Shown in pieces: positions 24,303 through 60,577 of a stretch of DNA of 64,000 nucleotides. The stretch spans positions 1,984,001 to 2,048,000 of the forward strand of contig NC_043003.1 in the NCBI RefSeq assembly GCF_006345805.1, read 5' to 3'. The notes under the pieces are model-generated. The model had not been told where the DNA came from. It saw only the letters and a list, made by a program, of their open reading frames with translations, and searched no databases. The stretch is from Octopus sinensis (taxonomy: Eukaryota). Within the stretch, counting starts at the first letter, position 1, and the number at the start of each line of letters is the position of its first letter. The position numbers and the translations under genes were made by a program.

Positions 24303-24584
24303 TACATACATACACAGACATACATACAGATAGACACATTGATGAATGGATAGCTAGATAGTTAGCTAGATAGACTAGTACGTGTACACACCCACACATA
24401 CACATGTATATATATATGTACATATATAAAAGCGACCTCTGCAGATGATGTAGTTGTTAATTTTGTTACATTGCCCTTTCAAATAAATCTGTTTTTTTTT
24501 ATCACCAACAATGTTATTATCGCTAAACTAAACACTATTTCGGCAAGAATGCCGTACTCTAACAATCGTTCGCCCTTCTTACTC

Positions 24585-24648
24585 TGGACTTTGGTTCGTT
24601 ATTGACAATTTTTTTACTATCTCCAGTCGCATCTTCATTAAATATAAT
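24585..24648 (+). promoter_or_regulatory. Putative MTTP distal promoter: HNF4-type DR1 site and TATA-like element
   Basis: TGGACTTTGGTTC at 24585-24597 (reverse complement GAACCAAAGTCCA, containing the CAAAGTCCA HNF4 core). TAAATATAAT at 24639-24648, about 90 nt upstream of ATG 24731. Confidence 0.45.
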
Positions 24649-24730
24649 TTCCACTTTACCCCACTCCGCTTTCGGTAGCTTTATCATATGAAACAAAACT
24701 GTTACAGCTTAGCAGAGCAATTAACTAGAC

Positions 24731-24803
24731 ATGTTGCCTTTTAATACACTTTACAAGACTGGTTTTCTGGTATTCGCTTCCTTATTTATTATTAATGTCG
24801 CTG
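24731..24803 (+). CDS. MTTP: MTTP candidate first coding exon 1A (signal peptide MLPFNTLYKTGFLVFASLFIINVA)
   Basis: gacATG start, hydrophobic 24-aa leader, donor G|GTAAGT at 24804 in phase 1. G+AT gives Asp, in frame with exon 48307. Confidence 0.7.
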
Positions 24804-25139
24804 GTAAGTTTTACTTTTTATTTCGCATCTTCGAAGAATTATCTTAATTTACGGGGGTTCAAACTTGCTCCCAAGACACTGCTTTGACTATCGAAGGATT
24901 TTCCTATATTCAAATGTGGTGTGTATGTTTCATGATGGATAAATAAGGATGAGAACAATCAACCGTTTCGCAGTGTTTCATATTCTTCTTGTATATACAT
25001 CGTTCGGTTGTCATTCATAAAATATTTATATATAATATATATTTCTATATTCTTTTCTGCTGTTTACTCTTCAGACATACATACATGTATATAATACATA
25101 TATACATACATTCACATATACATTCGTACATATACACAT

Positions 25140-25202
<63 letters not shown>

Positions 25203-25627
25203 TAACATACATCTAGTCATATATACACACATACACGTTCGCATATACATTAAATGACATTCACATGCATACATATACATATATAAACATACATTTACAT
25301 ATGTCCATGCGCACACACACACACCCACCCGCATAAACCGAAGGAGCCCCCCCCCCCGTTTCTTCATTAAAATCTGCCACGTGTCTGTAGGTGCCAGCAG
25401 CTGTCTTTGGTTCTTTATTACTCACCATCGTTGCCAGACCGGACCAAATGCTTGGCAGCATTTCTTTCGGCTTTGTACGTTTTAAGTTTGTCTTTCGTCT
25501 CTTTCGATAAAATAAGTACCAGTTATACACTGGGGTCGAAGATATCACCAAATCCCCTTCCTTCCAAATTACTAGCCTAAGGAAACATGGACATATCATG
25601 TGTGTGTGTGTGTGTGTGTGTGTATAG

Positions 25628-25988
25628 GGGCAGGTGTAGCTGTGTGATAAGAAGTTTGCTTCCCAACCACATGGTTCCAGGTTCAATTCCAGTGTTGGGC
25701 AAACGTACTCTACTATAGCCTCGGGCCGACTAAAGCTTTGTGAATGGATTTGGTTGATGGAAATTGAAAGAAGCCCATTATATATGTGTGTGTGTGTGTG
25801 CACGCGCGCGCGCGTTGTGTGGGTAGTGCATTCGTAACCTAGCGGTTCGGCAGAAGGAACCGATACAATAAGTGCCAGGATTTTTAAAAAAAACAAATTA
25901 TATCCTGGTGTCGACTTGTTCGACTAAAATTCTTCAAGGCAGTACTCCAGCATGGCCGCAGCCTAATGACTGAAACAAGAAAAAAGAC
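25628..25988 (+). mobile_element. SINE family A copy
   Basis: Same head and tail as 15994-16428. Confidence 0.75.
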
Positions 25989-26989
25989 ATATATATATGT
26001 ATATATATATATATAGATATATATATATACACACACACATGTTCTACGTCGTTCCATATTCTGTAGAGTGTCGAAGAATGAAGTAAAGCGTTAGAGCTCG
26101 ATATAAACAGCTGGGATAGAATTTATAAGAAGACCTCAGTGGTTCTCGGTCATTATAATGTGCGTTAATTAAAAAATTATAGCTATTTTAATTAATAATA
26201 CGTTTGTATATTTTGCTTTCAGACATTTCGATTTCAAATGTTTAGTTCACTTCGATTTCAAATTTTTATTTGCTTCCGTCTGGCCGGGTGCTCGAATGAC
26301 GGGTCCCACCCACTTTTTGACTCGGAGACAATCGCTGGCTCTTATATATATATATATATAAATTCGTGTGTGCGTTTGCGCGTGCGCGTGCACACTTGTT
26401 TCAGTCGTTGGACTGCGGCCATACTGGGGCACCGACTCGATGTGCTCGGTCGAAACAAGTCTACCCCAGTACTTATTTTTAAGTCTGGTACTTAAATGTA
26501 TCGGCCTCTTTGGCAAAATATATCCTTACGAGGACGTGAACAAACCAACACCGGTTGTCATGCGATGCTGGACACACACACACACACACGTGTGTGTATA
26601 ATGGATTTGTGTGTGTGTGTGTGTGTTGGTCTGTAGAGATGGAATGGTTATCTTATAAGCTTTGGTTCATTGTTTGAAAGGCTTGTGTGAAATCATTTAT
26701 TTCCTCCAAATCTTAATTGTGACATCACTTTTTTTTTTTTTTTGCTGAAAACCTAAGTTTTTGAAACGATTCCAACATTTCTTCGCTGAATTAGCATCAC
26801 TAACATCATCATCATCTCATCACAGCACTGTGTGTGTGTTTGTGGAGAGAGAGAGAGAGAGAACAGAGAGACATATAGATAGATAGATTAGAGAGAAAGA
26901 TATATATATATAAATGGCGGTGCCCCAGCATGACCACAGCTCGTGAGCTGAAACTAGATAAAATAAAAAAAATAAAATAAAATATATAT

Positions 26990-27043
26990 ATAGATAGATA
27001 GACAGACAGATAGATAGATATATATATATAGATAGATAGACAG

Positions 27044-27116
<73 letters not shown>

Positions 27117-27240
27117 TAGAGATAGATATACAGAATATAATATATTATATATATATTATATATATGTATAAGAGAGAGAGAGAGATAGATAGATAGATAG
27201 ATTCGAGAGAGAGAGAGAGAGAGAGACAGAGAGAGAGAGA
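26990..27240. repeat. (GATA)n/(GA)n microsatellite
   Basis: Read directly. Another (GATA/GACA)n tract lies at 29150-29390. Confidence 0.95.
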
Positions 27241-28538
27241 GGTGACGTTTTACACGCAACAGACGACATGCTGTCATGGATCCAAATGGAAAGAGCAGAC
27301 GATACATCACGTGACCAACAATGTCGTTCTGTTTGTTCAGTCACAGGTCAGTCCTGATTGAACAGACTTATGATTAAGTGTATATGATTAACGAATTATA
27401 CACTTTTAGAACTAAGCCTAGAACTACATTATCTAATGTGTCCTTTCTTTTGCTTTTTTTCTCTCAACACAATAGGATGCGATAGAAGGGAGATTTGGCT
27501 GCTATTTCTAGCAGATCCATCGACTACATAAAGACTCTAAATGTGAATGACTAACATTTTCGTGTTGCTTGCTACATGTGTTGTTTCCAGTTCTATCTTT
27601 GTCGGTCATTGGAATGCAGCCATGCTGGAGCACCGCATTCAAGGGACTTAATGCACAAATCAAACGCAGTACTTTTTTTTTTATTTTTAAAGTCCGGCAC
27701 TTATTTCATCGTTTTCCTTTGTCGCACTGCTATGTTACGGGGACGTAACTAAACCAACGCCGGTTGTCAAACGGTGGCGGAACTGACACAAACACACACA
27801 CTAGCGTAGCTGGGGTGGGGAATGGTCCGCCCCGGGCGGGACTTTTGGGTCTGCTGTAGGCAGTGTGTTTTTTGTGGGGTCCGGGGTCGCAAACAGAAGG
27901 ACCGCCCCGGGTGCGAATTTTTTTCCCCACGAGAATTCCGGACCCCAGTGATGGTGTATGCCCCTCTATGAATATAACAGCAGGTCTCACATAAGCATCG
28001 CAGTCTCCGCCGCCTCCACCATCATCATAGATCAGTGGAGCACCATCTCTATATGGAGCTAACATTAGGCACCCATACTCAGACTGAGATTAGTGATACT
28101 GCATGTAGCCATTGATATATGCAAGGAGGGCGCAATGCGACACAACGCCATATTGATTACGTTGTTCTCAGATCAACACCAACATTTTAAATTAAGAATG
28201 TACAAAATCAGTCAAAAAACTAGGAAACTACACACGTTTACATTTTCTAGTAAATTACGCAAATTGGCAACACTTCTGGCATCATCTGGGAGCAGTTCTC
28301 CATTCCCTTCATGCACTAATTTTCACATTTGTCACCCCTATTAACCCGTTTAAAACAGATTTTGCTATAACGCACATTTTCCACTAAACTCAACCGGAGT
28401 ATTTTCGTGACTAGGTGGACACTAGTTTGATAGTTGAGCTGTGATTGGCTGTATGCAAATGAGTTCATAACTGGAGTCCGGAACTCTCGTGGGAAAAAAA
28501 TATTTCGCGCCCCGGGCGGCAACACACACACACACATG

Positions 28539-28569
<31 letters not shown>

Positions 28570-29308
28570 GTAACAACGGGCTTCTTTTAGTTTCTGTCTA
28601 CGAAATCCACTCAGAAGGGCTTTAGTAAGGTCTGAGGCTATAAAACAAGACTCTTGCCGAAGGTGCGGCGCAGTGGGACTGAACCCAAAACCATGTGGTT
28701 GGGACGCAAACTTCTTACCACACAGCCATTATTGGGAAAGAAACTAAAACCGTGTTGCCATATTTGGCCGGGACGTGTTGTAACTCCGTGGATGTGTTAG
28801 TCTTATAAATGTGCGGAATGCGTCGGTTCGGAAACCGAAAATGACGGAGTGTGGAATTGGAGGAAGTGAGGCTAACATAGCTACGGAGTGTAGAATTGAG
28901 TGATTGATGACAGATCATGTGGGATGCAGAGAGAGAGAGAGAGAGAGAGAAATGGAGAAGCGACGAAGGTGGGGGGAGGGGCAGGAAAAGAATAACAGAT
29001 TGAGGCTGCTTACTTGAAATGTTTTCCTGCATCAACAAGTCGATGTTGAGAGAGAGAAAGAGAGAGAGAGAGAGAGGTGAGCAAACACAGTGTAGCCGCG
29101 ATTAGAGAGGGAAAGAATGAAACTAGACAAGAGCTGTTTTAGAGAAATGATGACAGACAGACAAGCAGACAGACAGACAGATAGATAGACAGATAGATAG
29201 ATAGATAGACTGATTGATAGACAAACAGACAGACAGATAGATAAACAGATAGATAGATAGACATAGATAGACAGGCAGGTAGACAGATAGACAGACAGAC
29301 AGACAGAC

Positions 29309-29346
<38 letters not shown>

Positions 29347-30489
29347 GTAGGTAGGTAGGTAGGTAGATAGATAGATAGATGAACTGATAGACAGGCTGAT
29401 TCATACTGTATTCTCCTGCATTAACAAGTCGATGTAGTGTAGAGAGCAACATGTAATGTAACCATTCAACCATCATTACTACCCAACCAACTCCTCTTGC
29501 ATTTCACATGGAATTTTTGGTTCTCCACCGTCACCCTGGTGCAGAAGTCAACCTGTCTTTTTTGGTTGTGAAGTTCGGTCTGAAAGATTAAACTCGTACA
29601 CCGGAAAATATGGCAGGGCACTGCGGTCGATGTAATCGACGTCTCTCCTCCTTTCAAAACTGTTGGCCCGAATCCTGCAATGTACTGGCATCGCATTCAG
29701 GGGGATGTTGTGATCTTGGTCACTCATAAGCCTTGGGAATCGGGTAACCGACCCTGTGAATCCTAAGGCTCAAGGAAAAAACTGTGAAAGTATCTTTTGT
29801 TGACACGGGATTTTAAAGGTCATCGACATCACAATGTGTCTGCTGTGGGTGGTGGTGGCGGCGGCGGTAGGGGGTCATGACTCGAACCCACGCAAAATAA
29901 AATACAAACTGCTCCGAAGGTGAGGGCCTTGGTATGGAGGCTGAGCTTATTTTCCAGTCATTGGACGGCGGCAATACTGGAGCATCGCCTTGAAGGGGTT
30001 TAGTCGAACAAATCGACCCCTGTATCCAGTTTTAAGTACTGGTACTTATTTTATCGGTTTTCTTTTATCGAACTGCTATGTTGTGGGGACGCAAACAAAC
30101 CAACACCGATTGTCAAAAGTGGTGGGAACAAACACAAAGGTATACACATACAACAAGCTTTCTCTCAGTTTCCGTCAACCAAACTCACTCACATGGCTTT
30201 GGTCAGCCCGAGGCTACAGTTGAAAAAAAAAACACCTACGCAATATATATAAAGATTTTCTTTCTGAACCTTCTGAAGGATGTTTGAGACGGTTTTGAAT
30301 TTCCCTGTCCATTGTGCAATCGTACCGATGTGCAGTCATTGGAGATGTTGCTGCCTAGAAGTCTGGATCGGAGGAGAGTGTCTAATTATCGCTTCTGTGC
30401 TGAGAAATGAAGGAGTGATGCAGGAGAATACTATTGACATATTAACCGAAGTTTTCTAAACGTTAACTATCAATTCAGTTCATGTATGT

Positions 30490-31250
30490 CCTTACTCGGG
30501 TGCTGAACTAATAGCTGTAGGGCTTCCAGAATGTGAGCAATGATCTGTATCAATAAGATATTTGGGTTTGGTAAGGAGATGGAAGAACAAAAATCTGTAT
30601 GAAGTTCCAAATGCTAAGTATTTACCGGTAGCAAAAATGTTGTCGTTGTGACGAATGACAGCAAAAAAAAAAAAAAAAAAGATATTCACACTAAATGAAG
30701 CAAGCCAACAGTTTGTATGAAATGGTGAAATGTATATTAGCGATGACAGTAACCATGAGTTGTGTAGATTCTTACAGTATACTGGTTTAAACTGTCACGA
30801 CCACCGTCAGTTGCTAGATAAACGATCTTATAAATGGTGTATCAATGAAAAGGCGCCAAAGACAAAATTGTTAATGACATTTCTGTTTGTACAAGAGACT
30901 TTAGAGGTCAGTTGTTTGCTGACGTCATCAATATTTGACAAAATTCCGTTTGTGTTGTCTAGTCATCTTTACATATGGACACAGTGATTCGGGCTCGATT
31001 CCTAGGTAGTGAGTGAGTGTTTGAGACTGCCAATTTACCTGCTACAGATCTATTGCAATGTAAACTTGGTTATGGTCTGTAACCTTCTGATGCTGAAAAG
31101 CTTTTGTTGAGATCGAAAGTTAATAGGGAATCCTGCATCCCTTTTCTATCCCTTAGCATAATAGAGTTGTCACATATACTAAACGGTACACAAGCAAGCA
31201 CGCAGCTTTGACTTCTGTTTTTACACCAAAGGGCTCAAATTTCTACCTTT
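30490..31250 (-). mobile_element. Possible highly decayed Gypsy LTR gag/protease relic
   Basis: Minus-strand fragment YRFLFFHLLTKPKYLIDTDH resembles the FLIDTG protease motif. Upstream gag-like similarity is weak. Confidence 0.3.
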
Positions 31251-31883
31251 CAACAACCCTTGTGTGGACTTGGCAAAGGAAATTAACTTATGTGGGCGGT
31301 TAGTAAATTCTCTGAAAACAATTCACAGAAGTCCTCTGTTTATTGTATAAACAGCTCTTTTGATAGAACCACAAATGCATACATAGACATTTGCATGTAT
31401 GCATGCATAGGTAATGATTGCATCTCGATGTCAAGCAATGCCATCGTTTGATTGATCCCTCAAAGCAGCATGGATGTGGCTTTTCTATCCTACGATGGAC
31501 CCTCACGCTTTTGCACGGATGTGACAGCGATGGACTCCACTTATAGCAGACGTTTAGAGACTTGCCACTAACGCTGACACAGGCCTTCATTCCTTCGTGG
31601 GATTTTTCTTTGAGTTTTTTGCCTTCTTTCGGCCACAGTCAGCCATAGTATGCAACACAGAATATAATTATCAAAAAAGCAGGCAATGCTTGTGTCTGAA
31701 GCTATTTAAGCAAAGAAAGGCTTTGCACGGGGTCGATTCCACTTTCTAAACAACATGTGTTTTCCCTAAAAGAACTAGTCTACATCACTGGATGCAAACG
31801 AAATCGCAAGTGTCACATCAGAATTCCCTTCTTCTAAAGAAGGTTCTGTCTAAAGAAAGGTTCTCTTACTTCCAGCTGTTGGA

Positions 31884-32097
31884 TACTCTCTTTTTACTCT
31901 TTTACTTGTTTCAGTCATTTGACTGCGACCATGCTGGAGCACCGCCTTTAGTCGAGCAAATCGACCCCGGGACTTATTCTTTGTAAGCCCAGTACTTATT
32001 CTATCGGTCTCTATTGCCGAACCGCTAAGTGCCGGGGACGTAAACACACCAGCATCGGTTGTCAAGCAATGCTAGCGGGACAAACACAGACACACAA

Positions 32098-32187
<90 letters not shown>

Positions 32188-32310
32188 GACGGGCTTCTTT
32201 CAGTTTCCGTCTACCAAATCCACTCACAAGGCATTGGTCGGCCCGGGGCTATAGCAGAAGACACTTGCCCAAGGATGCCACGCTACTTACCACACAGCCA
32301 CTCCTGCGCC
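31884..32310 (-). mobile_element. SINE family A copy
   Basis: Reverse complement of the family A head and tail. Other minus copies at about 20982-21277, 45870-46270, 47050-47395 and 58545-58906. Confidence 0.85.
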
Positions 32311-34319
32311 TTTGTCATTGATTCTACTGATTTCAGACCCCCTTTCACAGGATTTGTTTTTCGTCATACCAGCTGTCCACCGAAAACTATCTTCATGCAC
32401 GCATACATAGATACGTACGTACGTAATACATACATACACTCAAAGACAGACAGACAGATGTAAATTGACTTTATTTCTCAGATAATTAATATTCATGTTT
32501 CGAGCAATTTGAATTTGTGTAATCATTTAATTACTTAAAACTAATAATTCATTAAAATATCGTTTTATTTTCCCTTTAGCTTTAATTCCACTTTCAATCA
32601 CAGAATCGTAGAAATTAAAGCATTGTCGGCGATTAATCTGGATTTTTAATTTTTTAATCAAAAATGTTAAAACGTTTAACGAATACATCTACCCGGCCTG
32701 TAACGAGCCTCAAACATTCTCTGTATATTTACCTCCACTGATAGAGACAGTCACAATCCTATTTCAAATATGTTTGTTTTTGGAAATGTCCCTGACATAC
32801 ATACATATTCTTTGTGACAATGTTTTATTATTTTCTTTCTCTTGCAACATTATACGGTCGTTTTTTTTTTTTCTTCTTCATTTGGTTATGTGAGACATTC
32901 TTAACTCTAATATTCACTGGTTCAAAAGATTAGGTTGCGGGGGCTTAAAGCTATATATATTCGTGACAACTAACCCATGAACGAAAAATATTTTGCCGCC
33001 TTAACAAAAAATGCAAGTTGTTGAGGCGAAGGATGACACTAAAGAGACACACCATAGTAACATTTGACCTAATTGGAAATGTTGGTGGCAAAACGTGGGA
33101 CGAACAGACATTTTATAGATGTCCTTTTATTTTGTTGTTATACATTAAAGAAATCCAATAAAACTGATATATTAGAAACGATGAAAAAATAGTGCTGGGT
33201 TATACCTACTCAGTGCGTCCACTCCTAGACTTTGTTTCCTCATAACTTTAATAGGTATTTTTAAATGAAATCTTCTGGAAATACCTTTCAGATGGTATAG
33301 AATTCGATTGTATCGGAATTTAATGCAACAAGACAAACAAACGATGGCTGCGCACACATCCTGACACACAGCACAATTTTTTCAGAATTTCAAGTTACAT
33401 TTTAAAGACATGTGATGTGCATAACAATGCATGTGTGCATCCAACAATTTCTTTTTCTTTTTTCTTTTTTTACATTAAATTCCGATACAATCGTATTCCA
33501 CACCGTCTGAAAGTGCTTCTTTGGCGTGTGATCTAAAGGGGAGATGACTTTAGGTTACTTTTTAAAATTATTTTGTACATACTTAGCATTGTAAATGTAT
33601 TTTTCAAAATTCTTACTATTTTAATAATAAAAACAGAAGATACTGTCACTCACACTTTTCTCCTTCAGCCTTAGACTCTTTGATTAAACAAATCTGTATC
33701 TTATAGCATCGTCTAAATTCTAAACAAACTCCAAATGTTCGGACAATTTTTCACAATCGCAAAGTTTCTCTTCCCACCCACCTTTTTTTAAAATTATTTT
33801 GAGAACCCAATTTTGATTTTAGGTTGTAATATTTCTTTAAAATCCAGATTGCTTCCTCTGCTAGTTTTCTTGGGGCTGTAAATCCGCTTAACCAGCATTG
33901 GGAGAAGCGCAATGAGAGATTAACAAAGCAGCAAATTTCTTTTCGTAGGTGAACCCATAAAATGCAACATTTTTTTTTTTTTTTTTTTGCCAAGTTACTC
34001 AAGAAGTACTTTTGTTGTCTCTTATACTGCTAGAAATATCGACTAAATCTTCCTCAAATTGCACTTTTCTATTTTAGACTTTGCGTAACGTAGCTCTTGA
34101 CACATATATCTGAAAATATGATAATATATAATAGGGATGGTCATAGCTGGAATGCTTTTTTATAACAGGTGTACTCCACGAGAACAAATGTTACTGTTTG
34201 AGAAGTTCAGGAATATTTTAGGGAAAATATTGCGTGTAAAATTATGTTGTAGATAAATGACGGAGAGGGTTACACTTTGAAAAAAAAAAAATGATTCCAC
34301 CCATCCATTCTATTTTCTC

Positions 34320-34640
34320 CGCCCAGTATTCCTGGTAAGATTGTGGGGTAGAGCCTTCAGTCACCTCCTGCTTAGGGTCATATCAGAAGCAACCATTATT
34401 ACACTTTCCGTCTGGATTCCCAAGCCTGACCAACTGAGTCTCCCCTGAGCCTCCTGCTTGTTGGCTCCGCTTGAAGAATCCGTCTTGCCATTCTAATACT
34501 TGAGTTGTGATTTCTCAATGTAGAGAAGTAGCAGCTTTACTTGGAGAGACTCCCTGATCTTCAAGCCATGACCCTGTTGAATAATATTATTCCAGAGACC
34601 CTTCGAAAGAACCCCATTTCAGCTGCTTGTGTTCTCAGTT
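34320..34640 (-). mobile_element. RTE-clade LINE 3' relic
   Basis: Minus strand reads RTQAAEMGFFRRVSG...IRESLQVKLLLLYIEKSQLK. Confidence 0.6.
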
Positions 34641-37600: not shown

Positions 37601-38623
37601 AGGTTGCAAGACGCAACGAAAATTTTAGAAAAATAAATAAGAAATAAGTGGGAATTTTACCAATGAGTGTGTTAAATGATAAGGCACCAAAAGAGAATGA
37701 CTCTCCCCAGACACAACAGAATATTTTACTATATTCTATCTGAAGTTCAGTATTTCACGATATCGTGGAGTCGGTAAAATAATGTACCGGTCACAATATT
37801 AGTCAAGCACTGGGGGATCGATGTAATCAACTCGTGCCCTTCCCTTAAAATTGCTGGTCATGAACCTTACAACAAGGGTAATATTGTGGTCCTAGTCACT
37901 TGTACGCCATAGAAACCAAGTGACTGGCTCTGTGAGTGTAAGGGTCCTATAAAACCACAAGCGCACGCACACATTCTTTTACTTGTGTCAGTCATTGGTC
38001 CACGGTCACGCTGGAGCACTGCCTTGAAAGGTTTCGTCGAATAAATCAACCCCAGGACTTTTTTTTCTTCAAGTCTGAGCTATCGTTTTTCTTTTTGGCT
38101 TTTTTTTATTGTGTGTGTGTAGAATACGGGAATGTAAACAAACCAACGGTTGTCAAGTGTTGTAGCGATAAACACACACACACACACACACATTATACAT
38201 ACATACATACATGTATATGTATGTGTATTTTTTCAATGTGTACAAATAACACGGAAAAAATAAATAAATAGTTACCAGGGTGGCCAAAATTCGTGTAAAT
38301 GCCAAGGATATTACAGCCTACTTATAAAGGTGGAAATTCCAGGGTTGAATGAAATGTTTTTGTATAACGTGGATAAATTAAGAAATTGAATCAAACGCAA
38401 GTGTTATTCAAATCATTTATACTTCCAACACATGTTTCAAAGAAAGTATTGAGATTATTCCGGAGGGAATAAAAATGATGTAAAACAATGCAATCATCTC
38501 GGAATAATCTCAATGCTTTCTGCGAAACATATGTTGGAAGTATAAATGATTTGAATAACTCCTACGTTTGACTCGATTTCTTAATACATACATACATACA
38601 TACATATACATACATACATATAT

Positions 38624-38658
<35 letters not shown>

Positions 38659-39249
38659 TATACACACACACACACGCATGCATGCATGCATGCATACATA
38701 CATACATACATACATACATACATACATACATACATACATACATACATACATACATACATGCATACATACATGCATGCATGCATACATACATACATACAAG
38801 AAAACAAAAAATGGAAAAAAAAGAACATAACAGGCGACAACAAAACATTCGGATGGTTGGACGATACAAAAAAGGACATATATATATATATATATCATCA
38901 TCATCATCAACGTCGTTTAACGTCCGTTCTCCATGTTAGCATGGGTTGGACAGTTCAACTGGGGTCTGTGAAGCCAGGAGGCTGCATCAGGCCCAGTCTG
39001 ATCTGGCAGTGTTTCTACAGCTGGATGCCCTTCCTAACGCCAACCACTCCGAGAGTGTAGTGGGTGCTTTTTACATGCCACCAGCACGGAAGCCAGTCAA
39101 GGCGGCACTGGCATCGGCCACATTCGGATGGTGCTTTTTATGTGCCACCGGCCCAGGGATCACAACTAGTTTCCATTGATTTTTGCTGTTGCATTGATTT
39201 TTGATGTTAAAATTAACTCATTAAGCTAATGTTTGGAATATAAATTAAC

Positions 39250-40890
39250 ATTTAAAAGATTTTAATTTAGATCATAATCAAAATAAGCAACAGGATATCA
39301 AGAGGCGATGCAGTACGACCATTTCAAGCAGCTCCATTTAATTGAACAATGCAATCATTACATCAAGTTAAATGCAGGGCTATCCTCAGCTGCATAAATA
39401 AATAGAAATTTTTAATCAGTTGGACACATTTGTATGATTTTACTTGAATACTCAAATAGAGCAAGAAGAAGGAGAAAGTGCATGTTGCTACTAATGTGAC
39501 TCAGAATATACTACACTTCTAAGAACTCTATGAAGTTTGTTAGGGTCATAGCTTGTAAAGGATTGTGGTTGCTTTTAATGTATCAGTCTTTTTTTATCAA
39601 CTACCAAATCTAAGACAAGAGGACAGTGTCTGTTTAGAATGGATAGACAGAGTGAGTTGATGGTTTATAGTTGGGTATGATCATAAATATTGTCAGGATT
39701 TAGAAAATGTATAAATAATTGTCTATAAAGGAGGCTGGGTAGGGGAAGAACCTAAATCAAGATATTAATTACCAGTTAATGGGGCAAGACACTAATAAAA
39801 CCTATAATGTTAATACAAAGGAAATTATCATGGGGTACAATGGATGATTGTATATAAACAATATTGTTATGTTGTATGAAGATAAAATTTAAGATTATTA
39901 AAAATGATATTATAACCAGAATAAATAAACTGTGTATATAAAGCAATTTTCAACATAGAAAGGGGAGATTACATAAAATTTGTTTAGTATTCATACCAGT
40001 ACTTAATTATTTTCTTATAAGGTGATTTCTGTAAAGATTGCTCTGGGTATTTACTTAGGGAATACTGGGGCGATAAATCATGCTATCTTTATACTAGTTA
40101 TAAGCTAAGAATCAGAAAAAAAAATGGAAAAAATAAGTTGTGCACAGATACATACACATATTTAACTATGTGCATACATACAAATATACACAAATATTTG
40201 TACTTTATTATGGGTAGGTTACAATCAACTCTTCCTGACTTAAATAATTAGAAAGTTTATATTTCTCTTTAAGAACATTAATAGCTTATAAGAGATAAGA
40301 AGTTGATAGGTAAATATATCAAAATAAGAAAACACAATGATAAGAAATTATAGAGAATAAGAAGAAAATATATACAATACTAGCAGGTGTTCACATCACA
40401 TACGACACTAAAATTAATTTCTCCTGTCCAGGTCCAAATGTAGCATCTATAAACGCTAATTTCAAAAATATTTAAATGTACAGCCAACACTATGTACGCA
40501 TGATACCCTTAGGTCTAATCTATTATTAACCAGGTTGCTCTTATCCCTACACTTAAAAATTTCATATATTTCCATAGAGCACAGCTCACACCCATATCGA
40601 CTATCTCTATAAGGCTGCGCTTTCCTTATAATATCCCATTTAAGGCGAAATTTGATTCCGCTTTCTTTCAGTTCCCAAATCTTGCTAGATGAGGACGTAC
40701 AATTGGCTTTATGTTTGAGCCTAAAAGATGAAAAATATTTATTAATGCGATTTTTTAATATTTATTGAACATCCTATATATACAATGTTACCAGCTACAA
40801 TTGTGATAGTACACTTATAGAACACATTTTGGGTTAGACATCAGCCTAATAACGGACAGTGGGATTTAACCCTACAATTGCAACTAGAAT
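39250..40890 (-). mobile_element. Penelope-like retroelement relic (C-terminal GIY-YIG endonuclease plus 3' region with hammerhead)
   Basis: Minus translation of about 40885-40490: SCNCRVKSHCPLLG*CLTQNVFYKCTITIVAGNIVYIGCS, a frameshift, then SSFRLKHKANCTSSSSKIWELKESGIKFRLKWDIIRKAQPYRDSRYGCELCSMEIYEIFKCRDKSNLVNNRLDLRVSCVH. Confidence 0.82.
39308..39395 (-). ncRNA. Type I hammerhead ribozyme motif in the 3' region of a Penelope-like element
   Basis: Minus strand reads ATGCAG-CTGAGGA-TAGC...GCTT-GAAA-TGGTCG-TA-CTGCAT. Perfect 6-bp stem I, canonical core, extended stem II (CATTTAA..TTGA / TCAA-TTAAATG). Confidence 0.72.
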
Positions 40891-42078
40891 TACCACAATT
40901 AATATTATTGATATTCATACCATTATTATTATAAATATTGTTATTAATATTAATCCTACTACTACTATTGTATGTGTTATTTTCATATCCGGTATTATAT
41001 CTCCATATATATATATATATATGTCGTTGCCAGTACCGCTTGACTGGTTCCCGTGCTGGTGGCACGTAAAAAGCAACCACTACACTCTTGGAGTGGTTGG
41101 CATTAATAAGGGCATCCAGCTGTAGAAACTCTGCCAGATCAGATTGGAGCCTGGTGCAGCCATCTGGTTTGCCAGCCCTCAGTCATTCGTCCAACCCATG
41201 CTAGCATGGAAAGCGGACGTTAAACGATGATGATGATGATATATATATATATATGTGTGTGTATGTATATATATTATAGTGTGGTATGCCGGTTTATGGG
41301 GTTAGCCCTGGGTTTCTCGCTCATAAGGGGTTTAGCCTTACTGCGCATCTTCATACTCCAAACACCATAAACGGGGCTAACCCACTATAATATCAACTGC
41401 TCTACATCTTAGGGTGTGCTTCTCCTCCGGATTGATGTATTTCTACAAACGATCCATATATATATCATCATCATCAACATCATTTAACGTCTGCTTTCCG
41501 TGCTAGCATGAGTTGGATGATTTGACTGAGGACTGGTGAACCAGATAGCTACGCCACGCTCCAATCTGATCTGGCAGAGTTTCTACAGCTGGATGCCTTT
41601 CCTAACGCCAACCACTCCGAAAGTGTAGTGGGTGCTTTTATGTGCCACTGGCACAAGAGCCAGTATGGCGGTACTGGCAACGGCCACGCTCGAAATGGTG
41701 TTTTTAACTTGCCACCTGCACAGGATGTCAGTCCAGTGGCACTGGCAACGACCTAGCTTGAATGTTTTGCTCCCATGCCACCGGTACAAGTGCCAGTAAG
41801 GCGATGCTGGTAAGGATCACGCTCAAATGGTGTTTTTTACGTTCCACCAGCACAGAAGCCAGGCAGCTGCTCTGGCAGTGATCCCGCTCTGATGGAGCTG
41901 TTAGTGCTCCACTGGCACGGGTGCTAGTCATCGGATTTGATTCAATTTCGATTTCACTTGCCCCAACAGGTCTTCGCAAGCAGAGTTTAGTGTCCAATGA
42001 AGGAGGTTGGCATGGGTGCCAGTCGTTGAATTTGGTTCGATTTCGAATTCAATTTCGATATATATATATATATATATA

Positions 42079-42265
42079 GGCACAGGAGTGGCTGTGTGGT
42101 AAGTAGCTTGCTTACCAACCATATGGTTCCGGGTTCATTGCCACTGTGTGGCACCTTGGGCAAGTGTTTTCTACAATAGCCTCGAGCTATAATAGAAGAC
42201 ACGTGCTGGGAATCTTCATCCCACATGAGTGGATTTGGTAGACGGAAACTGAAAGAAGCCTGTCG

Positions 42266-42345
<80 letters not shown>

Positions 42346-42573
42346 GTGTGTCTGTGTATGTTTGTGTATCTGTGCTTGCCCCCCACCCCCCACCCCAACA
42401 TCGCTTGACAACCGATGCTGGTGTGTTTACGTCCCGGTATCTTAGCGGTTAGGCAAAAGAGACCAATAGAATAAGTAATAGGCTTACAAAGAATAAGTCC
42501 TGGAGTCGATTTGTTCGACTAAAGGCGGTGCTCCAGCATGGCCGCAGTCAAATGACTGAAACAAGTAAAAGAG
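42079..42573 (+). mobile_element. SINE family A copy with an internal templated insertion
   Basis: Family A head and tail; aberrant segment at 42186-42225. Confidence 0.85.
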
Positions 42574-43202
42574 TAATATATATATATATATATCATATAT
42601 ATTATATATGGATCGTTTACATACCGTTTATACATGCATACAAACACAGACACACACACACACACACACAGAGGCTTCCACTCAATTTTCGTCAGATAAA
42701 TTCCCTCTCAGGACATTTACCGACTCGAAGCAACAGTAAACGACTCAGGGTTGAACACGAAATCACGCGCTCCCAAAGCGCGTGCGCGATAAAGAGTGGT
42801 GGTGATGGGGGGGGGTCGGTGAGTGTGTATAGTTATATATATATATATATATACTATACATATATATTATATATACTTTGAGAGACAATTTGAAAACTAT
42901 GTCACTAGAAAAATAAACGCATAAAACGCAGTGGTATAAGCGATATTAAAGTCCAAACTGTGTAAAGGAAAATAGAAGTTGTGGCGTTCAAACTTTTCCT
43001 AAAATTATTGTGAATGATTCTGAGATGAAGATGAACTTTCCTCCACCACACTTCGAAACATCTCGAAAATCCCAAATCACCGTCAGTAGTACAACTCGCT
43101 GTATACATCCGGTTAGGTTTGTGTACCATTCTCTCAAGTGCTGGGAATCTTCATCCCAGCTCAGCATCCTTTCAACGAGGACAGTCTTGTAACATTTTGG
43201 TA

Positions 43203-43272
43203 ATGGCATTCCCAAGTAATAATACCCGTTCTTACTTTCTGCTTTGTTACGCGTTGATTTCTTTATTTTCAT
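43203..43272 (+). CDS. MTTP: MTTP candidate alternative first coding exon 1B (signal peptide MAFPSNNTRSYFLLCYALISLFS)
   Basis: gtaATGg start, hydrophobic 23-aa leader, donor T|GTGAGT at 43273 in phase 1. T+AT gives Tyr, in frame with exon 48307. Lies in non-repetitive sequence relatively rich in CpG. Confidence 0.65.
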
Positions 43273-43787
43273 GTGAGTATCCACGATTTGCTTTTTTTTT
43301 TTGTTTTTAATGTGGCATTTTAGAGATTTCTAGAAATGATCAACAACTGAGTCGGACGGAGGGGGGTGGGGCTCGGAATCCCGTCGCCTTGCGTTGTGGA
43401 CAAAACAAGATTTCGCTCGCAAAAAAAAATAATTTAATTCCTTCTGATATAATAACAAATTATTATTATTATTGGAGTGAAAAATTGTTGACAAAAAAGA
43501 TGTTTTCCCGAAAGTATTTCGTTTTAGCAGGAAAGAAAACTTTACGGAGATAGGGAAACATTAAGCGATCAAATTGTGAAGAACTTAACAATAATTATTT
43601 ATTGTGTATGTGTACATATATATTCTCATACATATACACATGCATATGCATACACACATTGTGTATGTAGTTGTGTGTGTATGTATGTATATATATATAT
43701 ATATAAACCCTTTATGGACGGGAAACCTGAGGTAATCCCATAAACTGGCTTTCCTCCTTTTTAATATATATATATATATGTATATAA

Positions 43788-43861
<74 letters not shown>

Positions 43862-44410
43862 TACAAACACACACACACACATATGTGCGCACACACCCAT
43901 ATTTTTGTTTAAAATGTTTGTGTGTGTGACCTTTTTTTTCCAATTACATCAGTCATATTTCCAAAACATCGTTGTTATAACTAAATTCTTGATGGAAAGG
44001 AATAACTTTCCTGAACTCGTCAGTTGTTTCCCTTCCCCTGTACCACGAGCCTGTATATGTGTATATATATATCGTTTTTGGATTTGGTTTGCAAGATTCT
44101 TTATATGAGTTCGTGTGTTGAAGCACATTCTCTTGTGTCTGGAGAGAGTCATTCTCTTTCAGTGCCCTACAATGTAACACACTCACCGGTAAAATTTCCA
44201 CTTATTTCTTATTTTTAATTTTTTAAAAATATTTTTATTTTCCTATAAGAATAAGAATATAAAAATAAGAAATAAGTGGAAATTTTACCGGTGAGTGTGT
44301 TACATTATAAGGCACAAAAAGAAAATTACTCTCCCCAGACACAACAGAATATATATATAGGACATGCACAAGGAATGTTTTAGTTTGACAGTCAATAAAA
44401 AGAGAAAATT

Positions 44411-44446
44411 TTTTGACGTTTCGAGCCTAGCTCTTCTTCATAAAGG
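44411..44446 (-). ncRNA. Degenerate minimal hammerhead motif
   Basis: Minus strand reads CTTT-ATGAAGA-A-GAGC-TAG-GCTC-GAAA-CG-TC-AAAA, with C3 changed to A. A more decayed copy lies at 13973-14008 (-). Confidence 0.45.
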
Positions 44447-44913
44447 AGAAAAGGAAAAGTCCAAAGAAGGAAAAGAAATCGCCAACAGCACATGTGTAGT
44501 TACATTGCTGAAGTATATGTCTGTCATTGTTCAGTTTAGTTCAAGATTTTTTGCCAATGGAGAAAGAGCTGGTTTCTAACCCAGATCCAAGGCTCCTTCA
44601 TTGGAATTTCAACATCAACAACAGGGTATGTTTGTATGTACGTATGTATGTATGAATGTATGTATGTATGAATGCATAATGTATGTTTTATGTATCTATT
44701 CTCATGCATATAGCTACATATCTAGACATGCTCATATATATATTTAAATGCTAAACTTCTGTAAAGTTTTACAGATTTTTACAGTTCCAGTGATGGATTG
44801 GATCTGCAGTCTTCCAATTAGCTTTCTCCTTTCTGGTTTTGTGAAGCTTAATTTCTCAAGATTGGTATTTAGGCAGTGTGTTACATATCCCAGGGCCCCA
44901 ATAATTGCAGGTG

Positions 44914-45596
44914 TGGAGGTGCAATGGCCCAGTGGTTAGGGCAGTGGACTCGTGGTCATAGGATCATGGTTTTGATTCCCAGACCGGGCGTTGTGAGTGT
45001 TTATTGAGCAGAAACACCTAAAAGCTCCACAAGGCTCTGGCAAGGGGTGGTGGTGAACCCTGCTGTACTCTTTCACCACAACTTTCTCTCTCACTTGCTT
45101 CCTGTTTCTGTTGTACCTGTATTTCAAAAGGGGCCAGCCTTGTCACACTCTGTCACGCTGAATCTCCCTGAGAACTACATTAAGGGTACATGTTTTGTTG
45201 TTGTTTGTTCCTTCTCGAGCCATGCCTGGCTCATAAGGGCCAGTTTCCCGGTTTCTTGGTGTATAGGTTCCCCACCTGGATGGTACGCCAGTCCATTGCA
45301 GGTGAGCTGCAAGATGCAAGAGGAAAGAGTGAGAGAACGTTGTGGCGAAAGAGTCAGCAGAAGTTTCGCCATTACCTTCTGCCAGAGCTGCATGGAGCTT
45401 AGGTGTTTCGCTCATAAACACACACATCGTCCGGTCTGAGATTCGAACTCGCGATCCCTCGACCGCAAGTCTGCTGCTCTAACTACTAGGTCATGTGCCT
45501 CCACATAGGGTACATGTGTCTGTGAAGTGCTCAGAGTAGGCTGTTCCATTGATCAAATCAACTAGAACCCTCATTGTTGTAACAGACGGAGTGCCG
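44914..45596 (+). mobile_element. tRNA-derived SINE family B with a nested opposite-strand SINE (45194-45506)
   Basis: Head GGAGGTGCAATGGCCCAGTGGTTAGGGCAG. The nested copy is flanked by an 11-bp duplication AGGGTACATGT (45183-45193 and 45507-45517). Related copies at about 14150-14432 (-), 35900-36230 (+) and 36795-37090 (-). Confidence 0.8.
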
Positions 45597-45599
45597 TAG

Positions 45600-45849
45600 T
45601 AATTACAGGTATAAACCTGAACTTGTAATTTGGATAGAGTAACTGCAGATTTCTCAATACTTCAGCGTCGGTGTTCCCTCTTCCACTGATCTTCAGCTTT
45701 ACGTTAACATCCATTGGGCAGCTAATTTCCACAACTGTGCACCGTTTCTCTTCTCAATCCCAAATCATTATATCAGGTCTGTTGTGCTTACATTTTATTG
45801 AGGTCTTCTCTGGTACATTCCACCAGTATTCCTCTTCGTTATGAGTGGT
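45600..45849 (-). mobile_element. Restriction-like-endonuclease LINE relic (R4/Dong-type)
   Basis: Minus strand reads YWWNVPEKTSIKCKHNRPDIMIWD*EEKRCTVVEISCPMDVNV...LRNLQLLYPNYKFRFIPVI, an RPD..D..E RLE motif. Confidence 0.75.
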
Positions 45850-47509
45850 TAACACTTTAACAATACTCTTTTTTTCTTGTTTCAGTCATTTGACTGCGGC
45901 CATGCTGGAGCACCGCCTTTAATTGAGCAACTCGACCCCAGGACTTATTCTTTTGTAAGCCCAGTACATATTCTATCGGTCTCTTTTGCCGAACCGCTAA
46001 GTAACGGGGACATAAACACACCAGCATCGGTTGTCAAGCAATGCTAGGGGGATAAACACAGACACACAAACACACACATATATATATATATATACACATA
46101 TATACGACAGGCTTCTTTCAGTTTCCATCTACCAAATCCACTCACAAGGCTTTGGTTGGAACGAGGCTATAGAAGAAGACACTTGCCCAAAATACCACGT
46201 AGTGGGACTGAACCTGGAACCATGTAGTTGGTAAACAAGCTACTTACCACACAGCCACTCCTACGCCTATGTGTTTTTTTTTTCTTTGTCCTTGAGATTA
46301 TCCTTCCAAGTATGTATGCATGTATGTATGTATGTATCTTTGTATTTGTGTGTGCGTGAGTGTCTTTGTATGTGTCTTGACAACTTTGTTGGTGTGTTTA
46401 CTGTAACCTAGTGGTTCAGCAAAAGAGACCGATAGAATAAATACCAGGCTTACAGAAATATAAATACTGGGGTTGATTCATTTGATTTTTAAAAAATTCT
46501 TTACGGCACTGCCCCAGCATGGCCACCACAGTCTAATGATTGAACCAAGTTAAAGATAAGAGATTAAAAAAAGGAGCCCCCATACCTGACCAGACCTGTC
46601 ATATTGTCTTAATTAATTATCTGTAATTTACTGTCAATAACATCTGTTAATTGCCAGCTAATGTACTTGAAGGAATAACAAATGTGGCTGAACTCTTCTA
46701 AGACTTGATGGAATGAAACCAAAGAACATTTAAAATTAGATGATTTCAGCATCCATCCATCAGTGAGTTGGCAGAATCAATAGAGTGTCAGAGGAGAGAA
46801 ATACTTTACCATTTTATGTCCTGAGTTCAAATCCTGTTGGGGTCAACTTTGCCTTTGAACCTTGTAGGTTTGATGAAATTTGCATGGATATGAGCAGGTT
46901 TTTTTTCCTCTTCCTTGCGTCAGGTGAGGAACTGCAACAGACCCACCTAACCCATACCTGTCTGGATAGATGGACGTAAAAGGGTAGTTGGAATTATTTC
47001 TGTAACAAATGTTTAAAATACGCAATGAATTTACATTCTTTTAGACTTCTATTTGTTTCAGTCATTTGACTGCAGCCATGCTGGAGCACTGCCTTTAGTA
47101 GAACAACTTACCCTTTGTAAGCCTCGTACTTATACTATTGGTCTCTTTATTGAACCGCTAAGTTACAGGGATGTAAACACACCAACATCGGTTGTCATAA
47201 GATGGTGACGGGGGGAGGGGCAAACATACACACACACACAACAGGCTTCTTTCAGTTTCCATCGACCAAATCCATTCACAAGGCTTTGGTTGGCCCAAGG
47301 CTATTGTAGAAGACACTTGCCCAAGGTACCACGTAGTGGGACTGAACCTGGAACCATGTGGTTGGTAAGCAAGCTACTTACCACACAGCCACGCGTGACA
47401 CCTCTCATTTAGTTAAATCTTAATATGAAATTGTTTCCATTGATAGTTTTAGCTTTGGTGCATGTATAAGTCACCCCCTAGTTTTTACAGCTGAAATCAT
47501 GTTTAAAAC

Positions 47510-48219
47510 AAGAGAGACGACTGTGCTGGTATGGTCACGTGTTGCGAATGGATGAGAACAGCTGTGTGAAAAAGTGTCACATCCTAGCAGTTGAGGGAAC
47601 CTGTGGAAGAGGTAGACCCAGGAAGACCTGGAATGAGATGGTGAAGCGTGACCTTCGAACATTGGACCTTACTGAGGCAATGACTAGTGACCGAGACCTT
47701 TGGAGATATGCTGTGCTTGAGAAGACCCAGCAAGCCAAGTGAGACCATAACCCATGGCCTATGCCAGGGGTATAACCAGCCCACTTATGAGTAACCTTCA
47801 TTCATTGGACAATAAACTTTGCTTGCAAAGACCTGTTGAGGCAAGTGAAATCAAAATCGCTGATATGGCCGATGACTGGCTCCCGTGCCGATGGCACATA
47901 AAAAGCACCATTCAAGCAGGATCACAGCCAGCGTTGCCTTACTGGCACATGTGTCGGTGGCACGTGAAAAACAACATTTGAGTGTGGTCATTGCTAGTAA
48001 CACCGTACTGGCTCCCGTGCAGGTGGCACGTAAAAAACACCTTTTGAGCATGCACCTACTGCACTCTCGAAGTGGTTGGCGTTAGAAAGGGCACCCAGCT
48101 GTAGAAACTTTGCTAGATCAGATTGGAGCCTGGTGCAGCCTTCTGGCTCGCCAGCCCTCAATCGAATCATCCAACCCATGCCAGTATGGAAAGCGGATGT
48201 TAAACGATGATGATGATGA
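47510..48219 (+). mobile_element. RTE LINE 3' fragment with (GAT)n tail
   Basis: ORF 47539-47742 VEGTCGRGRPRKTW...DRDLWRYAVLEKT; same family as 16521-19290. Confidence 0.85.
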
Positions 48220-48306
48220 ATTACACATAAGTAAATACAGTTGTTTGTTTTTCAATTGCAATATTTTAAATGAAACCTGATTTTTTGAAATTGCTTTATT
48301 TTACAG

Positions 48307-48476
48307 ATCTTACGGCTGGCTTTCAAGTAGGTGTTTCTTATCAGTATCAATATGAAACTTCAGTTTTATTCAATGAAGTCCATCACAAAACACCAAATGA
48401 GGACAAGCTCATCTTGGCAAAGGTTGTTGTTACCCCTTTGTATCAACTCGGAGAGAGGAAGTTTGTCAAGTTACAG
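48307..48476 (+). CDS. MTTP: MTTP exon 2 (LTAGFQVGVSYQYQYETSVLFNE...ERKFVKLQ)
   Basis: Acceptor tattttacag|, donor CAG|GTTAGT. Carries the Y-x-Y-x-Y start typical of the vitellogenin-N beta-barrel. Confidence 0.9.
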
Positions 48477-51185: not shown

Positions 51186-51392
51186 GTCCTCAAACCTGAT
51201 AAAGATGCCACAGGTTCTCATTCGAAATATATAAAACGACTCCAGAAGTTTCCCATATTCTTTGAAATCCATGAAAATGGAGAAGTGACCAATTTATATA
51301 TGGCAGCAACTGATTCCATATTTTCAACAAACTTCAAGAAAGGTATCATTAATTTATTCCAGCTGAAGACATCAGAAGAAACATCAACAGAA
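51186..51392 (+). CDS. MTTP: MTTP exon 3 (VLKPDKDATG...NFKKGIINLFQLKTSEETSTE)
   Basis: Acceptor ttttcttttctag|, donor GAA|GTGAGT, 69 codons with no stop. Contains the N-x-K-[KR]-G-x-x-x-L-F-Q motif. Confidence 0.93.
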
Positions 51393-51592
51393 GTGAGTAT
51401 ATTCTTCAAAATTCTCATTTTATAAACTTTACTCTATTCCCAAACATCACAAGTTCCAAATAATGTGGTCGACAAATTGGATGTTCTTCAGTTTCAATTA
51501 TTGGTTTCATTAGTCGATGGAACAGACAGACTACCAAATGTTTCCAAGTCTTTGGCCGTTGCTTTTATTGATCTAATTCATATTTATCTAAA

Positions 51593-51740
51593 CCCGTGGT
51601 CTGTGGACCCCTGGTGGTCCACTCCACAAAGCTAATCTGTGAACATGTTAAGCTGACAGACCTTTCAACATCCTGGGGCCTGTGGGAAAACTCATTTAAA
51701 TAAAAGGGGTCCTTGGTGTTGAAAAGTTTGGGAACCACTG
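51593..51740. mobile_element. hAT-like MITE fragment
   Basis: Ends in AAAAGTTTGGGAACCACTG, with internal GTGGACCCC/GGGGTCC motifs typical of Charlie/MER5-like MITEs. Confidence 0.45.
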
Positions 51741-52553
51741 GTCTAATTCCTAAGATTTTCTTGCTTCTTTTCAGATTATTATTATTATTATTATGCAGAA
51801 TCGTTACAGAACCAAACGAAATGCTTAATGGCATTTCTCCTGGTCTTAGATTCTGAATTTTAATTCTGTCAAGATAAACTTTGTCTTTCAACCTCATGGG
51901 GACAATGAAATAAGTTCTAGTTGAGCATTTGGGTTGACTCACCTCCTCACCTAAAATTTCAGGCCTTGTGCGTAGAATAGAAAGGATTATTAATATTGTT
52001 ATTTTTATTGTTATTGAGTGAGAGAGCAGTGCATGCCATCAAAGTGATACTGGGGTAAAATATACGAAGCCCAATATACCCATCATGACTAACCATCTGA
52101 TGAGGTTACACCAGGCACATGTATCACAACCATGTGTGCATGACATGGTGACCTCATATCAATATAAACAGTGCATGACCTTGCAGGTGGGGCCCAGTTA
52201 GAATTTTCTTCAGATCAAGAGCACATATCACTCAAAAGGTCCTTGAATAAGGGTTGTTTAAGGATGTTGAACGAAACACCTAGGTTTCCAACTGTGAATT
52301 ACGAAATCCCAAAGAATTCCTCCCCTACTATTTTTGCTCATGATCAGAGATGCACATATCGTCAGCCACTAAGGGACATGCTCAACTGGTTAAGGTCAAA
52401 CAACTGACAAACAAATCCGTGGTATTGAGCAGAATATTTGCTGTAGCCCATCTTTTATACCAAGACATAACAATGTACATGATAACACTTCCAATCAGTT
52501 AAGATCAGAAGACACGAGAGCCACTGCCTGGTACTGCATCAGGGCATTTTTTA

Positions 52554-52584
<31 letters not shown>

Positions 52585-52586
<2 letters not shown>

Positions 52587-52770: not shown

Positions 52771-52848
52771 GTTGTTATTATTATCATTATTATTATTATT
52801 AATGGCAATATGTTTCCTCATAACTAATATCCCACTTTCACATTTTAG

Positions 52849-56541: not shown

Positions 56542-56597
<56 letters not shown>

Positions 56598-57613: not shown

Positions 57614-57642
57614 GTAAGTTCTTTGAAGAATATTTCAACAAG

Positions 57643-60535: not shown

Positions 60536-60577
<42 letters not shown>

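What the first reader, a model, noticed from the sequence alone, without database searches (positions are those of the whole stretch)
24731..48476. MTTP appears to have two alternative first exons, 18.5 kb apart, encoding different signal peptides
Seen: exon 1A (24731-24803, MLPFNTLYKTGFLVFASLFIINVA, G|GTAAGT) and exon 1B (43203-43272, MAFPSNNTRSYFLLCYALISLFS, T|GTGAGT). Each has an ATG with a purine at -3, a hydrophobic leader, a consensus donor and phase 1, so both splice in frame to exon 2 (...VADLTAGFQVG or ...FSYLTAGFQVG). Intron 1 would be 23,503 or 5,034 bp. Both sit in islands of unique sequence. Known: mouse Mttp uses alternative first exons (MTP-A and MTP-B). Inference: a mollusc has independently evolved or retained dual promoters giving tissue-specific N-termini, for example digestive gland versus gonad or nervous tissue.
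Basis: partly seen in the sequence, partly recalled or inferred. Interest (0 to 1): 0.75.

Follow-up and report, generated by a model that had tools for sequence, protein, structure and literature searches.

The report
Octopus MTTP has two first exons
The octopus lipid-transfer gene MTTP has two alternative first exons 18.5 kb apart, both already in public gene annotations; they encode different predicted signal peptides that are likely cut off to leave the same mature protein, an arrangement already described for this gene in mice and crustaceans.

Summary
Confirmed, but ordinary. Coordinates, phases and intron lengths are as stated. The strict pattern occurs twice in the 48 kb upstream of exon 2, against 0.1 in shuffles. 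Both N-termini are already annotated: O. sinensis RefSeq X1 (1A) and X2 (1B), and two O. vulgaris proteins. Public contigs join 1B to exon 2 in 4 of 4 runs. A contig in 1 of 4 runs covers 1A and leaves the genome at its donor, but the joined letters were not shown. What I add: 1A resembles the MTP leaders of Argonauta and squids, so it is likely ancestral. 1B is shared with O. bimaculoides, resembles no outgroup leader and is likely a later gain. Both leaders are predicted to be cleaved at one site inside exon 2, so the exons likely swap promoter and 5' UTR rather than change the mature protein. Tissue specificity is untested. Mouse, human, salmon louse and mud crab MTP have comparable 5' variants. 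My searches found no paper on the cephalopod case.

The parts
24551..24730 (+). 5' UTR of exon 1A (at least this long)
   Evidence: One contig of run X2 covers 24551-24803 with 0 differences; a contig start is not a transcription start
24688..24744 (+). Out-of-frame upstream ORF (18 codons, weak context, C at -3) that overlaps the 1A start codon
   Evidence: Sequence; effect on translation untested
24731..24803 (+). Coding part of exon 1A: 24-residue leader, phase-1 donor; likely the ancestral first exon
   Evidence: (100% to XP_029639127.1 residues 1-24; same leader in CAI9725120.1)
24804..48306 (+). Intron 1 of the 1A isoform (23,503 bp), containing exon 1B
   Evidence: junction inferred from the annotated proteins
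43125..43202 (+). 5' UTR of exon 1B, if the contigs are colinear with the genome (78 nt in X11; possibly back to about 42908 in X18)
   Evidence: Lengths of loose ends, projected; only 30 letters of each were shown
43203..43272 (+). Coding part of exon 1B: 23-residue leader, phase-1 donor; likely a later gain
   Evidence: 100% to XP_029639128.1 residues 1-23; spliced to exon 2 in 4 of 4 runs
43273..48306 (+). Intron 1 of the 1B isoform (5,034 bp)
48307..48476 (+). Shared exon 2: end of the signal peptide, predicted cleavage site after Thr-Ala-Gly, start of the Vitellogenin_N domain
51186..63600 (+). Further MTTP coding exons (approximate matches 51186-51401, 52849-52968, 54865-55002, 55468-55554, up to 57613, 60173-60334, 62196-62360, 63475-63600); the gene runs on beyond the window
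   Evidence: tblastn of P0005 and P0007 on the window

Best explanation
This is the octopus MTTP gene with two alternative coding first exons, likely driven by separate promoters, each supplying a start codon and most of a predicted signal peptide that would be cut at one site in the shared exon 2 to leave the same mature protein. Shown: both exons, their phase and frame, the 1B-exon 2 splice in transcript contigs, and both isoforms in the annotations of two species. Inferred: the 1A-exon 2 splice (from annotation plus a contig that leaves the genome at the donor), separate promoters, and the cleavage site. Also inferred is the order of events. 1A is the older exon, shared with Argonauta and probably squids. 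1B was gained inside intron 1 before O. bimaculoides and O. sinensis split and now likely carries most transcripts in the sampled runs. The likely purpose is to control where, when and how much MTP is made, through promoter and 5' UTR; 1A also carries an overlapping upstream ORF.
For: RefSeq XP_029639127.1 (X1) and XP_029639128.1 (X2) match exons 1A and 1B at 100% and are identical after the split codon. O. vulgaris CAI9725120.1 and CAI9725121.1 carry the same two leaders (24 of 24 and 22 of 23 identical). The O. vulgaris reference-genome preprint says its alternative forms were added by PASA updates from Iso-Seq and RNA-seq (10.1101/2023.05.16.540928, passages); I assume, without checking, that these two proteins come from that annotation. 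In 4 of 4 runs (4 studies, 2 species labels) the exon-2 contig continues upstream into exon 1B letters 43236-43265 and downstream into exon 3. In 1 of 4 runs a 260-nt contig lies on 24551-24803 and its last 7 letters do not fit the intron. That run, X2, also holds the 1B form. O. bimaculoides has a 1B-type leader (15 of 23 identical) and Argonauta a 1A-like one (8 of 24; shuffle p 0.0015 uncorrected, among 21 comparisons). Against five outgroup cephalopod leaders 1A scores 14.8 (p 0.0004), above the best of 70 unrelated MTP leaders (12.4). 1B scores -3.8 at its donor and 6.6 at its best anchor. All 8 cephalopod leaders examined have small residues at -3 and -1 before the conserved F/Y-Q/E-V-G. 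In mouse, both MTP-A and MTP-B signal sequences are cleaved, the mature proteins differ by 2-3 residues, and the isoforms differ by tissue (PMC4714884, introduction).
Against: The 1A-exon 2 junction was not seen letter for letter: the 7 extra letters were not printed. No SignalP was available; cleavage is inferred from hydropathy and the -3,-1 rule. An earlier cut in 1B (after Leu-Phe-Ser) is possible and would leave a few extra residues. The anchor for the leader comparison was chosen by eye, needs a one-residue shift for squids, and assumes exon borders in the outgroups. Taken singly, 3 of 5 outgroup leaders did not match 1A (p 0.37-0.66). Outgroups are known from few proteins, and contigs drop rare forms, so a 1B-like exon could exist there unseen. 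No transcription start or tissue data. In human, an in-frame alternative first exon gave no protein (PMC4891672), so annotation does not prove translation.
Confidence: 0.82

Rival explanations
1. The two leaders give the protein different fates: different cleavage sites, import efficiency, or one leader kept as a membrane anchor. The isoforms would then differ in function and not only in expression.
For: The leaders are unlike each other (p 0.17-0.24) and differ in hydrophobicity (3.0 against 2.4). Mud crab MTP-C is predicted to lack a signal peptide (PMC8416765), and mouse MTP-B is linked to lipid droplets in that paper's discussion.
Against: Both end in the same exon-2 c-region with a good -3,-1 site at the position conserved across cephalopods. 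Both h-regions look too short for a stable anchor (inference). The mouse isoforms are equally effective in lipoprotein assembly.
Confidence: 0.1
2. Exon 1A is a vestige of the ancestral promoter that gives only rare or poorly translated transcripts. Functionally the gene has one first exon, 1B.
For: All 4 exon-2 contigs run through 1B. The 1A contig has depth 4.25 against 106.6 for the gene-body contig of the same run (the tool warns this is a poor measure of expression). An out-of-frame upstream ORF overlaps the 1A start.
Against: The 1A leader is intact, hydrophobic, 24 of 24 identical between two species, and still recognisable against Argonauta. RefSeq lists it. The runs were picked for holding exon 2 and may not include the tissues that use 1A.
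Confidence: 0.15
3. 1A and 1B arose by duplication of one first exon with its promoter, not by gain of a new exon.
For: Same phase, nearly the same length (73 and 70 nt), both hydrophobic; a faint likeness between 1A and the O. bimaculoides 1B leader (p 0.08).
Against: DNA alignments of islands, flanks and exons score within the shuffles (71, 86 and 106 of 300 shuffles reach the score). An old duplication of 70 fast-evolving bases could have faded beyond detection, so this bears on origin only and is not excluded.
Confidence: 0.3
4. One of the two exons is a chance match or an annotation artefact.
For: Looser criteria give further look-alikes, such as 32820-32889.
Against: 1B is spliced in 4 of 4 runs. 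1A is covered by a contig that stops fitting at the donor, is annotated in two species, and resembles the outgroup leaders.
Confidence: 0.03

Closest known systems
Mouse Mttp MTP-A / MTP-B (PMC4714884, abstract and introduction)
   Same: Two coding first exons spliced to a shared exon 2, each with a signal sequence; mature proteins nearly identical.
   Different: The mouse exons are 2.7 kb apart (18.5 kb here). The mouse extra exon is upstream of the canonical one, whereas here the likely newer exon is downstream. Tissue split and a form with both exons (MTP-C) are shown in mouse and untested here. Exon homology was not tested.
Human MTTP MTP-B / MTP-C (PMC4891672, passages)
   Same: Distant alternative first exon (10.5 kb) with its own promoter; upstream ORFs tune translation.
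   Different: Human MTP-B gave no protein and exon 1B acts as UTR; here both exons encode full leaders conserved between species.
Salmon louse LsMTP-A/B/C (PMC5538283, passages) and mud crab MTP-A/B/C (PMC8416765, passages)
   Same: Invertebrate MTP genes with 5' variants that change the N-terminus and differ by tissue or stage.
   Different: The louse variants come from intron retention and exon skipping with a second start codon; one crab form lacks a predicted signal peptide.
RefSeq O. sinensis MTP isoforms X1 and X2 (XP_029639127.1, XP_029639128.1)
   Same: These are the two products described; their first-exon peptides match the window at 100%.
   Different: They are annotation records; my searches found no paper that discusses them.

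Membership tests
MTP large subunit (MTTP) | N-terminal lipoprotein domain (Vitellogenin_N, PF01347) | tested here: met
   118.5 bits against a cut-off of 24, residues 30-568
MTP large subunit (MTTP) | C-terminal MTP lipid-binding domain (PF19444), protein of about 870-900 aa, no further domain | tested here: met
   198.6 bits against a cut-off of 27; 872-873 aa; only these two Pfam families
MTP large subunit (MTTP) | Closer to MTP than to lipovitellin | tested here: met
   PDB 6i7s and 8eoj (MTP) E 1.7e-86; 1lsh (lipovitellin) E 4e-8
MTP large subunit (MTTP) | Cleavable signal peptide | tested here: inconclusive
   Hydropathy and the -3,-1 rule fit both leaders; no SignalP available
MTP large subunit (MTTP) | PDI heterodimer and lipid-transfer activity | not tested
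   No complex prediction or assay was run
Alternative-first-exon MTP isoforms (mouse MTP-A/B type) | Two coding first exons in frame with a shared exon 2 | tested here: met
   the 1A junction rests on annotation
Alternative-first-exon MTP isoforms (mouse MTP-A/B type) | Nearly identical mature proteins | tested here: inconclusive
   Identical after the split codon; shared cleavage site predicted only
Alternative-first-exon MTP isoforms (mouse MTP-A/B type) | Separate promoters and transcription starts | not testable with these tools
   Only contigs were available; they cannot show a start
Alternative-first-exon MTP isoforms (mouse MTP-A/B type) | Different tissue distribution | not testable with these tools
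   Runs carry no tissue label
Alternative-first-exon MTP isoforms (mouse MTP-A/B type) | Common descent of the extra exon with the mouse exon | not tested
   Mouse exons were not compared; PMC4891672 found no human counterpart of mouse exon 1B, so independent origin is inferred

The most novel reading that the evidence does not exclude
Promoter turnover caught in progress. A new signal-peptide exon (1B) arose inside intron 1 of MTTP in the Octopus lineage at least 34 million years ago and took over as the main start, while the ancestral coleoid exon (1A) survives as a minor, uORF-damped, tissue- or stage-restricted start. With mouse, human, louse and crab, this would be a further independent gain of a second 5' end on the same gene, implying repeated selection to split MTP control between lipoprotein export and other lipid roles.
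Probability: 0.35. Interest if true: 0.42.

Novelty: new member of a known kind. Interest (0 to 1): 0.22.

Why it matters
It adds a mollusc to the animals in which MTP has more than one 5' end, and it gives octopus researchers two isoform-specific junctions for following lipid handling by tissue and stage. Because the mature protein is likely unchanged, the case speaks to promoter evolution and not to new protein function. Alternative first exons are common and both isoforms are already in RefSeq, so a specialist would not be surprised.

Tried and rejected
No RNA holder listed: one search listed 24 runs, none on record as RNA; the contigs laid are nonetheless spliced on both sides of exon 2. 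Runs X5, X10 and X16 gave no contig on exon 1A; contigs drop rare forms, so this is no evidence of absence. I laid 7 of the 24 listed runs (7 of the 20 that hold exon 2). A search for shorter proteins with the N-terminal 82 residues found none among 18 candidates, so no further octopod leaders were obtained. DNA and peptide likeness between 1A and 1B was not above shuffles. Exon 2 alone gave only a sub-threshold Pfam hit, DTC, rejected. Twenty of the 65 long ORFs in the window were scanned and none hit Pfam at E 0.01, so no nested or neighbouring gene was found among them. The 150 listed 50%-identity representatives added no octopod leader; 70 of them served as background. Earlier scan notes held nothing near this place or under these words. 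Paper searches: MTP with octopus gave 4 unrelated listings; MTP with cephalopod gave 0; octopus, alternative promoter, first exon and cephalopod gave 0. Subscription journals are mostly outside the library, and no supplements were read. No structure or complex was predicted, since the isoforms differ only in the leader.
Full report
Observation. Both candidate exons are present exactly as described. Exon 1A codes from 24731 to 24803 and exon 1B from 43203 to 43272. Each has G at -3, ends in phase 1 at a GT[AG]AGT donor, and reads in frame into exon 2 at 48307-48476. The introns are 23,503 and 5,034 bp. A scan for the same pattern finds only these two on the + strand upstream of exon 2 and none on the - strand; 200 local shuffles give a mean of 0.1 and never 2. 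The thresholds were set with the two exons in view and the hydropathy scale is recalled. A looser donor admits three more + strand donors (two in a microsatellite near 2968, one at 32889). Sequence alone is therefore suggestive, and the case rests on the evidence below.

The gene. Exon 2 retrieves Octopus and Argonauta MTP proteins. The full protein carries Vitellogenin_N and MTP_lip_bd and no other Pfam family. Its best solved relatives are MTP structures at E 1.7e-86, with lipovitellin far behind. An exon-3 peptide has one match in the genome. Eight more coding exons map downstream within the window. Both leaders match the O. sinensis RefSeq proteins at 100%, so the window is most likely from that species.

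Both isoforms are already annotated. The cluster look-up lists O. sinensis XP_029639127.1 (X1) and XP_029639128.1 (X2), which begin with exon 1A and exon 1B and are identical after the split codon. O. vulgaris has the same pair, CAI9725120.1 and CAI9725121.1, plus a 754-aa form that starts at an internal Met. The O. vulgaris reference-genome preprint says its alternative forms came from PASA updates on Iso-Seq and RNA-seq (10.1101/2023.05.16.540928, passages). I did not check that these accessions belong to that annotation, and I could not see the reads behind either annotation.

Transcript evidence. In 4 of 4 runs laid on exon 2 (4 studies, 2 species labels) the contig continues upstream with letters of exon 1B (43236-43265) and downstream into exon 3. 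The 1B junction is therefore shown. On exon 1A, 1 of 4 runs gave a contig: 260 nt, of which 253 lie on 24551-24803 without a difference, and the last 7 do not fit the intron. That is what splicing at this donor would give, but the 7 letters were not printed, so the partner exon is inferred. The same run, X2, holds the 1B form. All data are contigs, which cannot give starts, levels or tissues. That every exon-2 contig runs through 1B suggests only that 1B is the commoner form in these runs.

Which exon is older. O. bimaculoides has a 1B-type leader (15 of 23 identical, against 805 of 849 for the rest) and Argonauta a 1A-like one with the same junction residues. Against five outgroup cephalopod leaders anchored at their ends, 1A scores 14.8 (shuffle p 0.0004). 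The best of 70 unrelated MTP leaders with a free anchor scores 12.4. 1B scores -3.8 at its donor and 6.6 at best; the O. bimaculoides leader reaches 10.8 at best, within the background. Singly, only Argonauta (p 0.0015) and Uroteuthis (p 0.0095) match 1A; three others do not. The anchor was chosen by eye and outgroup exon borders are assumed. By parsimony both exons existed in the ancestor of O. bimaculoides and O. sinensis, dated to about 34 million years in the preprint, with 1A the older. In a cuttlefish-like cluster all 9 members that keep their N-terminus share one leader type, one of them starting later; this is weak evidence, since rare forms are dropped. No likeness between 1A and 1B was found in DNA or protein, which neither shows nor excludes an old duplication.

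How it likely works. Each exon supplies the start codon, the n-region and most of the h-region; exon 2 supplies the c-region. All 8 cephalopod leaders examined have small residues at -3 and -1 just before a conserved F/Y-Q/E-V-G, where the Pfam domain begins. Both isoforms would thus be cut at the same place and yield the same mature protein. This is a prediction without SignalP. The difference would then lie in promoter and 5' UTR. The 1A UTR holds an out-of-frame upstream ORF, 24688-24744, in weak context, that overlaps the main start; upstream ORFs damp translation of mouse and human MTP-C. Tissue specificity is plausible by analogy and untested.

Comparison with what is known. Mouse MTP-A and MTP-B use first exons 2.7 kb apart, both signal sequences are cleaved, the mature proteins differ by 2-3 residues, and the tissues differ (PMC4714884, abstract and introduction). 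Human MTTP has an unrelated exon 10.5 kb upstream that gave no protein when spliced to exon 2 (PMC4891672, passages). Salmon louse and mud crab MTP each have three 5' variants, and the crab paper notes the pattern across phyla (PMC5538283 and PMC8416765, passages). The octopus gene works like the mouse pair; shared descent of the exons is unlikely and was not tested. Three searches found no paper on the cephalopod case, within a library that lacks most subscription journals.

Verdict. It is a new member of a known kind, already present in annotation. The modest addition is the likely order of events: an older distal exon and a newer proximal one. Interest 0.22.

Noticed in passing
window 32820-32889 (+): A third look-alike: ATG with A at -3, 23 hydrophobic codons and a phase-1 but weaker donor (TAT|GTGAGA), in sequence that matched only itself in the genome. 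T-rich and in no annotated protein; probably chance. No reads were laid on it.
   Followed up: partly
P0006 (CAI9725122.1); its start Met lies in the exon at window 51186-51401: A third O. vulgaris isoform of 754 aa starts at an internal Met and lacks the leader, which implies another 5' end or a frame-breaking splice form.
   Followed up: no
P0045, P0046, P0049 against P0015, P0047, P0050: Mytilus MTP isoforms X1 and X2 differ by a 16-residue insert right after the signal peptide, and other Mytilus forms start at an internal Met: 5' variation of another kind in another mollusc.
   Followed up: no
C-terminus of P0001, P0003, P0005 (beyond the window): Octopus MTP ends in S-L-E-L, reminiscent of a KDEL-type ER retention signal (recalled); Argonauta ends in S-L-E-I and the squid proteins lack it.
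   Followed up: no
window 48490-48555: A short dispersed repeat just behind exon 2, with at least 42 other matches in the genome.
   Followed up: no
window 43014-43192: Upstream ATGs at 43014, 43025 and 43031; the last two open a 53-55 codon ORF that stops 10 nt before the 1B start. They matter only if transcription starts that far up, as one contig may imply.
   Followed up: partly
window 23265-23600: Two tandem copies of a 168-bp unit (86% alike) about 1 kb upstream of exon 1A, probably a SINE-like repeat.
   Followed up: no
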